From positions 1-64,000 of the IMG/VR virus record IMGVR_UViG_3300027969_000058: 64,000 nt of DNA. The stretch is one strand, 5' to 3'. The notes beneath the pieces are model-generated. The model made no database searches and had not been told where the DNA came from. It saw only the letters and a list, made by a program, of their open reading frames with translations. Below are positions 29,103 to 30,364 of this stretch, piece by piece (position 1 is the first letter of the stretch; every line of letters begins with the position of its first letter). This DNA comes from a virus. A program made the position numbers and the translations under genes.

Positions 29103-29157
29103 CAGGATGCTTATTTTTCAATTAAAAGTTGAATTTAAAATTTGCTGTTCGCATCCT
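29103..29157 (-). ncRNA. ACAGCAA-motif RNA, copy 3 (Lys-like loop)
   Basis: AGGATGC-GA-ACAGCAA...TTCAA-CTTTTAA-TTGAA...GCATCCT-G. Confidence 0.65.
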
Positions 29158-29162
29158 TAACT

Positions 29163-29236
29163 TGGTGCCCCATGACAGAATCGAACTGCCGTAACCTGAT
29201 TACAAAACAGGTGTAATACCATTATACTAAAAGGGC
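29163..29236 (-). tRNA. tRNA-Thr(TGT), second copy
   Basis: cloverleaf, CCA. Confidence 0.9.
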
Positions 29237-29241
29237 AAATT

Positions 29242-29319
29242 TGGCTGTGCGTCCAGGAATCGAACCTGGCTCAATCTTCGTTAACAGCGAAGCGCCTACA
29301 CCTTGCTTGCTCACGCACA
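29242..29319 (-). tRNA. tRNA-Asn(GTT), second copy
   Basis: cloverleaf, CCA. Confidence 0.85.
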
Positions 29320-29325
29320 ATAAAT

Positions 29326-29400
29326 TGGCGCCGTAGATGGGACTCGAACCCACCTGGTATGGATAGACAATCCACTGCCCTCCCCGAGGACTACTACGGC
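29326..29400 (-). tRNA. tRNA-Asp(GTC), second copy (U37)
   Basis: cloverleaf, loop TTGTCTA. Confidence 0.85.
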
Positions 29401-29421
29401 ATATTGAATTTTATTTAATTG

Positions 29422-30186
29422 TCAACGTTTAATTAACTCAATTAAACGAGCACCGATATCTATTTCGTGGTCAAGTTTACCAAATCTATAAGATTTAGGG
29501 TCATGGTGATGATTATTATGCCAGCCTGCCCCTAACGAAAAATAGGATATTATGGGAACATTGCGTGAATTATCTTTGGTTTTGTAACTCACGTATCCAT
29601 ATTTAGAATTGTGGAAAAAATAATTACTTAAATTATCAGCTACTGTCATTAAGAAATAGCCGCCAATGCAGAAAAAGAATAAAAAGAAATAAGGATTAAT
29701 TAAAAATAGTATTAATCCAATACCCCAATAAAATTTGTAATAGTGGTCATGTATCAATCTAATAACTTTATCTCTATACAAACTGCGAGGTGCTATTAAT
29801 CCGGATACATTTTCTAATGTAGGTTTAATAAACCAAAGAAATGAACTTTGCCAAAATCCATGTATTGGACTATGTAAGTCAGCTTGTGTATCAGAATGTC
29901 TATGATGATGTAAATGAAGGGCAGTCCAAAAAATAGGACTACCTTGTCCAGTTAAACTACCAAACACAACAAAGATATAGTGCCAAAATTTTGATACCTC
30001 AAAGCTTTGATGTGTTAAGTATCTATGAAACCCAATGGTGTTTCCAAATATACCTAATATATAAAAACCCAATATAGAATATAAAATGTAAAGCCAATGA
30101 AAATTAAAAATCAATACGCCAAGGGCAAATATCGTTAAGAATATTTGTGGTAACATTAATATATAAAAGTGCTTGCTCATCATCAT
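29422..30186 (-). CDS. Membrane fatty acid desaturase
   Basis: HRYLTH, HLHHH, HNNHH. Confidence 0.9.
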   Translation of the reverse strand: MMMSKHFYILMLPQIFLTIFALGVLIFNFHWLYILYSILGFYILGIFGNTIGFHRYLTHQSFEVSKFWHYIFVVFGSLTGQGSPIFWTALHLHHHRHSDTQADLHSPIHGFWQSSFLWFIKPTLENVSGLIAPRSLYRDKVIRLIHDHYYKFYWGIGLILFLINPYFFLFFFCIGGYFLMTVADNLSNYFFHNSKYGYVSYKTKDNSRNVPIISYFSLGAGWHNNHHHDPKSYRFGKLDHEIDIGARLIELIKR

Positions 30187-30222
30187 ATTTATAATAAGAC
30201 TTGGGAAAGGATTGAACTTATT

Positions 30223-30297
30223 TGGTACTCCGAACGGGAATCGAACCCGTGTTACCGACTTGAAAGGCCAGCGTTCTAACCATTAAACTACCGGAGT
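30223..30297 (-). tRNA. tRNA-Glu(TTC), second copy
   Basis: cloverleaf, CCA. Confidence 0.92.
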
Positions 30298-30306
30298 GTA
30301 ATAAAA

Positions 30307-30364
30307 CAGGATAGCATTTTGTTTTCATTTCCATTGAAAGTTTTTAATTTGCTGTTGCTATCCT
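30307..30364 (-). ncRNA. ACAGCAA-motif RNA, copy 4 (Ser-like loop)
   Basis: AGGATAGC-A-ACAGCAA...TTTCA-ATGGAAA-TGAAA...GCTATCCT-G. Confidence 0.65.

What the first reader, a model, noticed from the sequence alone, without database searches (positions are those of the whole stretch)
29103..30364. Cargo of the short ACAGCAA RNAs looks like isolated anticodon stem-loops (possible nuclease decoys)
Seen: each short copy holds one hairpin with a 7-nt loop having U at loop position 2 and A at position 6. Copy 3 is TTCAA-CTTTTAA-TTGAA (the same loop as tRNA-Lys UUU); copy 4 is TTTCA-ATGGAAA-TGAAA (Ser GGA-like); copy 1 at 16829 is TTTTC-A-CTATAAT-C-GAAAA (Tyr-like). Copies 3 and 4 start a few nt after a tRNA CCA, so tRNA processing could release them. 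Established: tRNA-Lys(UUU) is the PrrC target. Inference: anticodon mimics acting as decoys or sensors for anticodon nucleases or modification enzymes.
Basis: partly seen in the sequence, partly recalled or inferred. Interest (0 to 1): 0.8.

Follow-up and report, generated by a model that had tools for sequence, protein, structure and literature searches.

The report
Anticodon-arm display on phage Ro60-partner RNAs
Two small RNAs between the tRNA genes of this large lake phage carry a tRNA-like anticodon hairpin on a conserved "handle"; that handle travels with a Ro60-shaped protein gene, so they are probably undescribed Y-RNA-like partner RNAs and not free-standing decoys.

Summary
Copy 3 (29104-29157, minus strand) has a 5-bp stem with loop CUUUUAA. 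Copy 4 (30308-30364) has loop AUGGAAA. Copy 1 needs an A·C closure, its relatives have 9-nt loops, and its "loop" is also a TATAAT box.

Of 120 distinct short relatives in other phage contigs, 53 have a strict tRNA-type loop (Y32-U33-NNN-R37-A/C38). Shuffled controls give a mean of 1.6 and a maximum of 6. The stem covaries, and one stem carries different triplets in different phages.

All copies share a handle: a 7-bp closing stem, ACAGCAA, and a 3' GU. Longer relatives carry rearranged whole tRNAs on the same handle. The handle lies directly upstream of a gene (15410-16816) whose model folds like Ro60. In 80 loci chosen by that protein, 92 of 92 handle matches lie on its strand and 90 are upstream.

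The handle shares the defining features of Dictyostelium Class I RNAs but scores below the Rfam threshold.

Best reading: Y-RNA-like partners that display an anticodon arm. The decoy function is untested. I found no published description. This scan has noted the same system on other DNA (at least 21 notes).

The parts
29102..29157 (-). Copy 3, a short handle RNA. Closing stem 29151-29157 with 29104-29110; ACAGCAA 29142-29148; 3' GU 29102-29103.
   Evidence: 67.7 bits with R1, though it was in the training set. Matches RF01414 end to end at 19.6 bits.
29117..29133 (-). Copy 3 cargo: 5-bp stem UUCAA/UUGAA with 7-nt loop CUUUUAA (tRNA-Lys UUU type).
   Evidence: The hairpin is kept in relatives (L112, L035, L030, L074).
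30306..30364 (-). Copy 4, a short handle RNA. Closing stem of 9 bp, 30356-30364 with 30308-30316; ACAGCAA 30349-30355; 3' GU 30306-30307.
   Evidence: 70.2 bits. RF01414 at 17.6 bits.
30323..30339 (-). Copy 4 cargo: stem UUUCA/UGAAA with 7-nt loop AUGGAAA. It is anticodon-shaped, but its lineage varies at positions 33 and 37.
16829..16883 (-). Copy 1, the gene-proximal short handle RNA. It ends 14 nt before the start codon of the Ro60-like gene. Its 9-nt loop is not anticodon-like, and it overlaps a promoter-like site.
   Evidence: (RF01414, 22.0 bits).
16893..17056 (-). Copy 2, a long (164-nt) handle RNA of a conserved subtype. It lies downstream of the promoter-like site 17119-17091.
   Evidence: Relatives of 155-184 nt lie in the same place in L010, L027, L038, L050, L053, L056 and L113.
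15410..16816 (-). Gene for a 468-aa Ro60-like protein (Pfam DUF2828 + DUF7788, with a vWA MIDAS motif DxSxS).
   Evidence: pLDDT 92.3; the top 13 fold matches are all Ro60/TROVE.
29163..29236 (-). tRNA-Thr(UGU). Its CCA end lies 5 nt upstream of copy 3.
30370..30444 (-). tRNA-Arg(ACG). Its CCA end lies 5 nt upstream of copy 4.
30223..30297 (-). tRNA-Glu(UUC). It starts 10 nt after the closing stem of copy 4.

Best explanation
Copies 3 and 4 are small (about 55-60 nt) non-coding RNAs cut out of the phage tRNA operon transcript. Each has two modules.

Module 1 is a conserved handle: a 7-9 bp stem joining the 5' and 3' ends (AGGAUnn / nnAUCCU), the single-stranded motif ACAGCAA just after the 5' strand, and a 3' GU. 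I infer that the handle is the binding site for the phage's Ro60-like ring protein (gene 15410-16816), as the conserved stem of a Y RNA binds Ro60.

Module 2 is a tRNA-derived cargo, which here is only an anticodon arm. I infer that the protein-RNA particle presents this arm to a factor that reads tRNA anticodon loops. That factor could be a host anticodon nuclease, a modification enzyme or a repair enzyme. The particle would then bait, titrate or recruit it. A decoy is one version of this.

Shown here: the family, the handle, the covarying stems, the tRNA-type loops, the series of tRNA cargos, the Ro60 fold, and the gene-RNA linkage.

Inferred: binding, processing, and what the displayed arm does.
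For: Family:
- More than 120 phage contigs hold the pattern.
- A looser scan found 204 elements, against few in reversed-sequence controls (32 raw matches against 609).
- The closing stem covaries: 38 and 40 of 83 sequences changed on both sides at pairs 6 and 7.
- In 67 elements not picked by the forced pattern, the base after the stem is G in 67 of 67 and the next is U in 52 of 67.

Cargo:
- tRNA-type loops are far above shuffled controls.
- The arm's stem covaries. Pair 30-40 is AU 13, GC 15, UA 5, CG 5; pair 29-41 is UA 14, AU 14, CG 6.
- The same stem carries up to five different triplets.
- Among the longer elements (75-150 nt), 33 of 40 hold a T arm and 22 hold an acceptor stem capped by a loop.
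- After rotating these in silico, ARAGORN calls Ile-GAU, Arg-UCU, Trp-CCA, Ile-UAU and Lys-CUU.

Protein:
- The AlphaFold2 model has pLDDT 92.3.
- The 13 best PDB fold matches are all Ro60/TROVE, including the Thermus phage phiLo Ro60. E-values run from 5e-8 to 3e-5, TM-scores mostly 0.5-0.62, over about 500-560 aligned columns.

Linkage:
- In 32 of 121 RNA-selected loci a homologue (30-95% identity) is present, usually with a short handle RNA ending 14-30 nt before its start.
- In 80 protein-selected loci, all 92 model matches lie on the gene's strand, 90 upstream and 2 downstream.
- 39 of the 73 loci that have upstream sequence hold one ending 40 nt or less before the start.

Precedent: bacterial YrlA Y RNAs have the same topology, a 5'/3' stem plus a tRNA-like module, and lie beside the Ro60 gene on the same strand (PMC4201824).
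Against: - No binding, expression level or RNA ends were measured.
- Copies 3 and 4 lie 12-13 kb from the Ro60-like gene, so their link to it rests on the shared handle.
- The handle differs from the known Ro60-binding motifs (GGUCCGA; GNCGAAN0-1G).
- The Pfam TROVE model does not match anything in this genome.
- About half of the short relatives have no tRNA-type loop, so anticodon display cannot be the whole function of the family.
- The protein-selected loci are relatives (65-94% identity), so part of the synteny is inherited and not independent.
- No RNA repair genes (RtcB, Rnl, CCA-adding enzyme) were found in the 114.7 kb held, which is about a third of the genome.
Confidence: 0.6

Rival explanations
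1. The short RNAs are free-standing decoys. Released from the tRNA transcript, they compete with tRNAs for host anticodon nucleases such as PrrC-type enzymes, without needing the Ro60-like protein.
For: tRNA-type loops are enriched. The triplet UUU (Lys) is 15 of 53 mimic loops against 58 of 1575 real tRNAs in the same loci (odds ratio 10, p = 2e-9, not corrected for relatedness; 8 of 34 counted per cluster). Triplets ending in U are 37 of 53 against 559 of 1575. From my own knowledge, tRNA-Lys(UUU) is the PrrC target.
Against: This does not explain the invariant handle or its linkage to the Ro60-like gene. The stems are A+T-rich and unlike the cognate tRNA stems. From my own knowledge, many anticodon nucleases need the whole tRNA or modified bases. 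The A+U-rich composition alone favours U-rich loops. Copy 4's lineage does not keep U33 or R37.
Confidence: 0.12
2. The elements are structured spacers that serve tRNA operon processing or termination (an end-protecting hairpin, an RNase entry site or a weak terminator) and have no function in trans.
For: 87 of 204 start 10 nt or less after a tRNA, and 68 are followed by one within 10 nt. Many closing stems are followed by GUUUUAU.
Against: The motif ACAGCAA and the 3' G are invariant across distant phages. The cargo is tRNA-derived with its own covariation. Many copies are not next to tRNAs but next to the Ro60-like gene. The terminator scan found none at copies 3 and 4, though its criteria exclude such long loops. 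A terminator inside an operon would be counter-productive.
Confidence: 0.08
3. The displayed arms are substrate mimics for tRNA modification enzymes. The prevalent U36-A37-A38 is the context of t6A37 in tRNAs that read ANN codons. The mimics would titrate those enzymes or be modified by them.
For: U36 is 73%, A37 90%, A38 85% and C32 73% of the minimum-energy 7-nt loops. Triplets ending in U are 70% against 35% in real tRNAs. YrlA is modified by tRNA enzymes (TruB, DusA) in Salmonella (PMC4201824).
Against: No modification data exist. Composition bias contributes to the excess of U. Loops with other triplets (GUA, UGA, GCA, GGA) also occur.
Confidence: 0.08
4. For copy 1 only: it is mainly a cis element of the Ro60-like gene. 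It would be either an operator through which the protein controls its own mRNA or a promoter, and not an anticodon mimic.
For: It ends 14 nt before the start codon, next to the ribosome-binding site. The same placement recurs in 39 of 73 loci. It holds a promoter-like site, TTAACA-17-TATAAT, matching 11 of 12. Its lineage has 9-nt loops.
Against: It has the full handle like the other copies. The TATAAT is not kept in all relatives, where it reads GCATAT or TCATAT. The two roles do not exclude each other.
Confidence: 0.1

Closest known systems
Class I RNAs of dictyostelid social amoebae (Rfam RF01414; Kjellin et al. 2021, PMC7919456)
   Same: Length is about 60 nt. A short stem joins the 5' and 3' ends, with its structure kept and its sequence covarying. 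A conserved motif ending in ACAGCAA follows the 5' strand directly (Rfam consensus GaUcuC-CUUACAGCAA). The RNA starts with (A)AG and ends with CUGU, whose C pairs with the 5' G. The interior is variable and A+U-rich. All three short window copies align to the model end to end.
   Different: Scores are 17.6-22.0 bits against a gathering score of 41.5. The host is a phage of bacteria, not an amoeba. There is no DUSE promoter, and the RNAs sit inside tRNA operons. Position 3 of the 11-nt motif is U in only about 58% of copies. The known amoeba partner is the RRM protein Rnp1A/CIBP, not a Ro60-like protein. tRNA-derived cargo has not been described for Class I RNAs. The paper states that the class is absent outside Dictyostelia.
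Y RNAs with Ro60/Rsr, especially bacterial and phage YrlA (Chen et al. 2014, PMC4201824; Thermus phage phiLo Ro60, PMC12135203)
   Same: The topology is a 5'/3' stem plus a tRNA-like module whose acceptor end is closed by a loop. The RNA gene lies beside the gene of a Ro60-fold protein on the same strand. There are several RNAs per protein gene.
   Different: The handle motif is ACAGCAA, not GNCGAAN0-1G or GGUCCGA. The protein belongs to Pfam DUF2828/DUF7788, not TROVE. No Y-RNA family of Rfam reached its gathering score in the window. The short copies carry only an anticodon arm, which is the part that YrlA lacks.
Anticodon stem-loop of tRNA
   Same: It has a 5-bp stem and a 7-nt loop with Y32, U33, R37 and A38, and variation is concentrated at positions 34-36.
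   Different: There is no D arm, T arm or acceptor end, so it cannot be charged. The stems are 76% A+T and differ from the cognate tRNA stems. Pair 27-43 is often a mismatch.

Membership tests
Dictyostelium Class I RNA (RF01414) | Length 42-65 nt, with a short (about 6 bp) stem joining the 5' and 3' ends; the structure is conserved and the sequence covaries. | tested here: met
   The copies are 53-57 nt from stem to stem. The 7-bp stem changed on both sides in 38-40 of 83 sequences.
Dictyostelium Class I RNA (RF01414) | An 11-nt motif next to the 5' strand, with U, C, C, A, A at positions 3, 6, 9, 10 and 11. | tested here: inconclusive
   Positions 6, 9, 10 and 11 always hold, but ACAGCAA was required by my scans. 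Position 3 is U in 39 of 67 independent elements: in copy 1, but not in copies 3 or 4.
Dictyostelium Class I RNA (RF01414) | Conserved ends: the RNA starts with (A)AG and ends with CUGU, whose C pairs with the 5' G. | tested here: met
   The genes read AG...CUGU. The base after the stem is G in 67 of 67 and the next is U in 52 of 67 elements not selected for it. The actual RNA ends were not measured.
Dictyostelium Class I RNA (RF01414) | Reaches the Rfam gathering score (41.5 bits). | tested here: not met
   22.0, 19.6 and 17.6 bits, with full-length alignments.
Dictyostelium Class I RNA (RF01414) | A DUSE promoter about 60 nt upstream; a dictyostelid host. | tested here: not met
   These are phage tRNA operons with sigma-70-like promoters.
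Y RNA / YrlA with Ro60 | Encoded near a gene for a Ro60-fold protein, on the same strand. | tested here: met
   Copies 1 and 2 lie directly upstream. Across phages, 92 of 92 matches are on the gene's strand and 90 are upstream. Copies 3 and 4 lie 12-13 kb away and share only the handle.
Y RNA / YrlA with Ro60 | The Ro60-binding motif GNCGAAN0-1G (bacteria) or GGUCCGA (animals) in the 5' strand. | tested here: not met
   The handle reads AGGAUnn-nn-ACAGCAA.
Y RNA / YrlA with Ro60 | A tRNA-like module with T and D arms and a capped acceptor stem. | tested here: not met
   It is absent from the short window copies. It is present in relatives on the same handle: 33 of 40 longer elements (75-150 nt) have a T arm and 22 a capped acceptor.
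Y RNA / YrlA with Ro60 | Physically bound by the Ro60 protein. | not testable with these tools
   This needs a pull-down or a gel shift.
tRNA anticodon arm mimic | A 5-bp stem and a 7-nt loop with U33 and R37, kept in relatives. | tested here: met
   Met for the copy 3 lineage (CUUUUAA kept). Only partly met for copy 4 (loops AUGGAAA, ACGUUAA, AUGUUUA, ACGUUUA). Not met for copy 1 (9-nt loops).
Anticodon-nuclease decoy | Cut by, or competes for, an anticodon nuclease. | not testable with these tools
The excess of the Lys-UUU triplet is only suggestive.

The most novel reading that the evidence does not exclude
The handle RNAs make the phage Ro60-like ring a programmable display panel. Each RNA presents a different anticodon arm, or a whole tRNA body, to host tRNA-targeting defence enzymes. 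Cutting or binding of the displayed arm would be sensed or neutralised by the particle. The same handle-protein logic would also explain the Class I RNAs of Dictyostelium, which would then be the Y RNAs of a DUF2828-type Ro paralogue. One Class I pull-down protein, DDB_G0281243, still has no known function (bioRxiv 10.1101/2020.04.05.026054). DUF2828 proteins do occur in eukaryotes: an alga, plants and fungi.
Probability: 0.15. Interest if true: 0.9.

Novelty: new variant of a known kind. Interest (0 to 1): 0.72.

Why it matters
Ro60 and its Y RNAs are a conserved but poorly understood RNA-surveillance system, and why bacterial Y RNAs mimic tRNA is an open question. Here a very common phage protein family has the Ro60 fold. 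It has more than 6,000 clusters at 50% identity. It comes with RNAs that carry swappable pieces of tRNA on one handle, down to a bare anticodon arm.

That gives a direct experimental route. The cargo can be changed to ask which host enzyme is engaged. It also ties phage tRNA arrays to the conflict over tRNA cleavage. The match to Dictyostelium Class I RNAs, which have had no explanation for 20 years, suggests a protein partner to test there.

Tried and rejected
- Known RNA families: Rfam at gathering scores finds only tRNAs and tmRNA in the window.
- Self-cleaving ribozyme: I compared the topology with HDV-like ribozymes by eye. There is no P2 or P4 partner downstream, so I rejected this. It was inspection only.
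- Pseudoknot between ACA of the motif and the 3' UGU: sterically unlikely, because there is no linker across a 7-bp stem. However, ACAG and CUGU are complementary, and an alternative pairing cannot be excluded because both are invariant.
- Close phage records: megablast against GenBank phages found nothing.
- Pfam TROVE, RtcB, RNA ligase and CCA-adding enzyme: no match in the 114.7 kb held. The record is only about 33% complete, so this says little.
- Other candidate copies (36763, 51097, 19282, 20886) lie in coding sequence without a closing stem. A model search with filters off finds only the four copies.
- Mimic stems as copies of the cognate phage tRNAs: rejected.
- Expression: contigs from four lake metatranscriptome libraries cover elements like copies 3 and 4 joined to tRNAs, and none covers the desaturase gene between them. 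Contigs cannot show transcription, ends or levels, and DNA carry-over is possible, so I draw no conclusion.
- Dictyostelium link: Avesson 2011 and Aspegren 2004 are not held. A motif search in the truncated proteome supplements of PMC7919456 found no DUF2828-like protein, which is inconclusive. A search for longer homologues found eukaryotic DUF2828 proteins but no dictyostelid one.
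Full report
**What the window is.** The window is part of a 114.7-kb IMG/VR phage record estimated to be 33% complete. Lake metagenomes hold it. Its minus strand carries an array of 33 tRNA genes and a permuted tmRNA between 17.1 and 34.5 kb. Genes for two fatty-acid desaturases, a ketoacyl synthase, a halogenase-like protein, a radical-SAM protein and a 2OG oxygenase are interspersed.

**The observation.** On the minus strand the window holds four elements with one architecture:
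- a 7-9 bp stem that joins the two ends (AGGAUnn / nnAUCCU; AGAAUGU / ACAUUCU in copy 1);
- two bases, then ACAGCAA;
- an A+U-rich interior;
- a 3' GU after the stem.

A covariance model run with filters off finds no fifth copy.

Copy 3 (29104-29157) has the interior hairpin UUCAA-CUUUUAA-UUGAA. Copy 4 (30308-30364) has UUUCA-AUGGAAA-UGAAA. Both begin 5 nt after the CCA of a tRNA, and copy 4 ends 10 nt before the next tRNA.

Single-sequence folding preferred other weak A-U hairpins.

Copy 1 (16831-16883) differs. The 7-nt loop needs an A·C closing pair, and its relatives have 9-nt loops without U at the second place. CTATAAT is also the second hexamer of a promoter-like site, TTAACA-17-TATAAT.

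**Is it more than chance?** A pattern scan of IMG/VR returned more than 120 contigs, many with two or three copies. A looser scan required only ACAGCAA and a 7-bp stem two bases upstream. It found 204 family members in those loci, against few matches in reversed-sequence controls (32 raw matches against 609).

The closing stem covaries strongly. In 67 elements that the first pattern could not have selected, the base after the stem is G in all 67 and the next is U in 52.

Counts for the 120 distinct short elements, against 200 shuffles of each interior:

| Feature | Observed | Shuffle mean | Shuffle max |
|---|---|---|---|
| Stem of 4 bp or more with a 7-nt loop | 96 | 35 | 51 |
| U33 and R37 | 64 | 5.8 | 13 |
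| Strict Y32-U33-NNN-R37-A/C38 | 53 | 1.6 | 6 |

After clustering at about 80% identity, 22 of 60 clusters hold a strict loop. Relatedness therefore inflates the counts but does not create the signal.

Loop positions 32, 33, 37 and 38 are nearly fixed while 34-36 vary. The stem covaries. One and the same stem carries different triplets in different phages. UUUGA/UCAAA appears with UCU, CUU, UUU, GCU and UGU. UUUCA/UGAAA appears with GUA, UUU, GUU and GCA.

That includes copy 3's lineage. It includes copy 4's lineage only loosely and excludes copy 1's.

**What the cargo is.** Longer members of the same family carry whole tRNA bodies on the same handle. The gene order is rotated: anticodon arm, variable region, T arm and acceptor 3' strand come first. 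A short capping loop follows, without CCA. Then come the acceptor 5' strand and the D arm, and the handle closes the molecule.

Of the 40 longer elements (75-150 nt), 33 have a T arm and 22 a capped acceptor stem. When I rotated these and trimmed the linkers in silico, ARAGORN called consistent tRNAs: Ile-GAU, Arg-UCU, Trp-CCA, Ile-UAU and Lys-CUU. In others the handle replaces the anticodon arm or emerges from the variable region.

The short copies are thus the minimal end of a series of tRNA-derived cargos. This supports reading their hairpin as an anticodon arm. A capped acceptor without CCA cannot be charged, so these are mimics and not split or permuted working tRNAs.

The mimic arms are not copies of the phages' own cognate tRNA arms. 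A mean of 4.2 of 10 stem positions differ, and they are 76% A+T against 40%.

**What the handle goes with.** Fourteen nucleotides after copy 1 starts a 468-aa gene (15410-16816) with Pfam DUF2828 and DUF7788.
- Its family is very large.
- An AlphaFold2 model built on 74 diverse homologues has pLDDT 92.3.
- Its 13 best PDB matches are all Ro60/TROVE proteins over nearly the full length. Only then come isolated vWA domains.
- A sequence profile gives Ro60/TROVE as the best, though weak, PDB matches at the MIDAS motif.

In the RNA-selected loci, 32 of 121 hold a homologue (30-95% identity). Usually a short handle RNA ends 14-30 nt before its start, and often a 155-184-nt handle RNA lies just upstream, as in the window.

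I then selected 80 loci by the protein alone. All 92 model matches lay on the gene's strand, 90 upstream and 2 downstream, with similar amounts of sequence searched on each side. Of the 73 loci with upstream sequence, 39 had a handle RNA ending 40 nt or less before the start.

This is the arrangement known for Ro60 and its Y RNAs. Bacterial YrlA has the same topology of a 5'/3' stem plus a tRNA-like module (PMC4201824).

**Comparison with known families.** Rfam has no family for these RNAs at gathering scores. At relaxed thresholds all three short copies align end to end with Dictyostelium Class I RNA (RF01414) at 17.6-22.0 bits, below the 41.5-bit cut-off.

The published definition of that class fits almost point for point (PMC7919456). 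It specifies a length of about 60 nt, a covarying 6-bp terminal stem, an 11-nt motif ending in ACAGCAA beside the 5' strand, a start of AAG, and an end of CUGU whose C pairs with the 5' G.

That paper reports the class as absent outside dictyostelids. I therefore do not file the phage RNAs as members. They fail the score and lack the promoter context. They do share the defining architecture.

I found no paper that describes the phage RNAs or the DUF2828-RNA pairing.

**How it most likely works.** The handle is the protein-binding module and the cargo is the effector module, as in Y RNAs. The particle would present an anticodon arm to something that reads anticodon loops.

The excess of the Lys-UUU loop fits bait for tRNA-Lys nucleases: 15 of 53 against 58 of 1575 real tRNAs. 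The excess of U36-A37-A38 fits engagement of modification enzymes for ANN-decoding tRNAs. Composition bias and relatedness weaken both figures.

Nothing here shows binding, processing or function. Contigs from RNA libraries of lake samples include such elements joined to tRNAs, but they cannot prove transcription.

**Verdict.** It is not supported for copy 1, which may instead act in cis on the Ro60-like gene. The mimic idea is supported. The free-decoy idea is one untested version of a better-supported reading, namely Y-RNA-like partners of a phage Ro60-like protein.

Earlier notes of this scan describe the same system in at least 21 other genomes. I reached the reading before consulting them and re-tested it here. 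They are AI notes and not independent evidence.

Noticed in passing
window 28777-28842 (-) and 30455-30515 (-): Two other structured spacers lie in the tRNA array. Each is closed by a long stem that begins ACAC(A/U)CUCU and holds two small inner hairpins. The first has a 15-bp stem, -24.8 kcal/mol, z = -4.75. They may be a second small-RNA family.
   Followed up: partly
window 29073-29053 (-) and 29053-29018 (-): Just after copy 3 comes a ribosome-binding site and a 6-codon mini-ORF (MKRAKR, then stop), followed by a stable hairpin, all ahead of tRNA-Lys(CUU). A similar mini-ORF plus hairpin follows a handle RNA in locus L087.
   Followed up: partly
window 16877-16849 (-): A promoter-like site, TTAACA-17-TATAAT (11 of 12), lies inside copy 1. 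Its first hexamer overlaps the ACAGCAA motif and its second is the 'loop'. A second site at 17119-17091 precedes copy 2.
   Followed up: partly
all four copies, e.g. window 29145-29148 with 29102-29105: ACAG of the motif is the exact complement of the conserved 3' CUGU. An alternative pairing that opens the last two pairs of the closing stem is therefore possible. Both are invariant, so covariation cannot test it. The same holds for the Class I RNA consensus.
   Followed up: no
loci L074, L111, L082 against L083, L102 against L008, L090: On relatives with whole tRNA cargo, the handle leaves the tRNA body at three different places: between nucleotides 26 and 27, in place of the anticodon arm, or at the variable region.
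   Followed up: partly
window 17623-18213, 19163-20323, 21828-22979, 23155-23925, 29422-30186, 31277-32428 (all -): Metabolic genes are interleaved with the tRNA genes: a 2OG-Fe(II) oxygenase, a tryptophan-halogenase-like protein, a radical-SAM protein, two fatty-acid desaturases and a beta-ketoacyl synthase.
   Followed up: no
proteins P0281, P0285, P0286, P0291, P0298: DUF2828/DUF7788 proteins also occur in eukaryotes: the green alga Trebouxia, the plants Dioscorea and Lonicera, and the fungi Oleoguttula and Vermiconidia. They are 659-927 aa and about 24-31% identical to the N-terminal 320 aa of the phage protein.
   Followed up: no
window 28217-28308 (-) and 25035-25123 (-): ARAGORN reports an unusually long tRNA-Ile(UAU) of 92 nt and a tRNA-Tyr of 89 nt. 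Rfam's tRNA model scores the Tyr gene only 30.4 bits and does not list the Ile gene.
   Followed up: no
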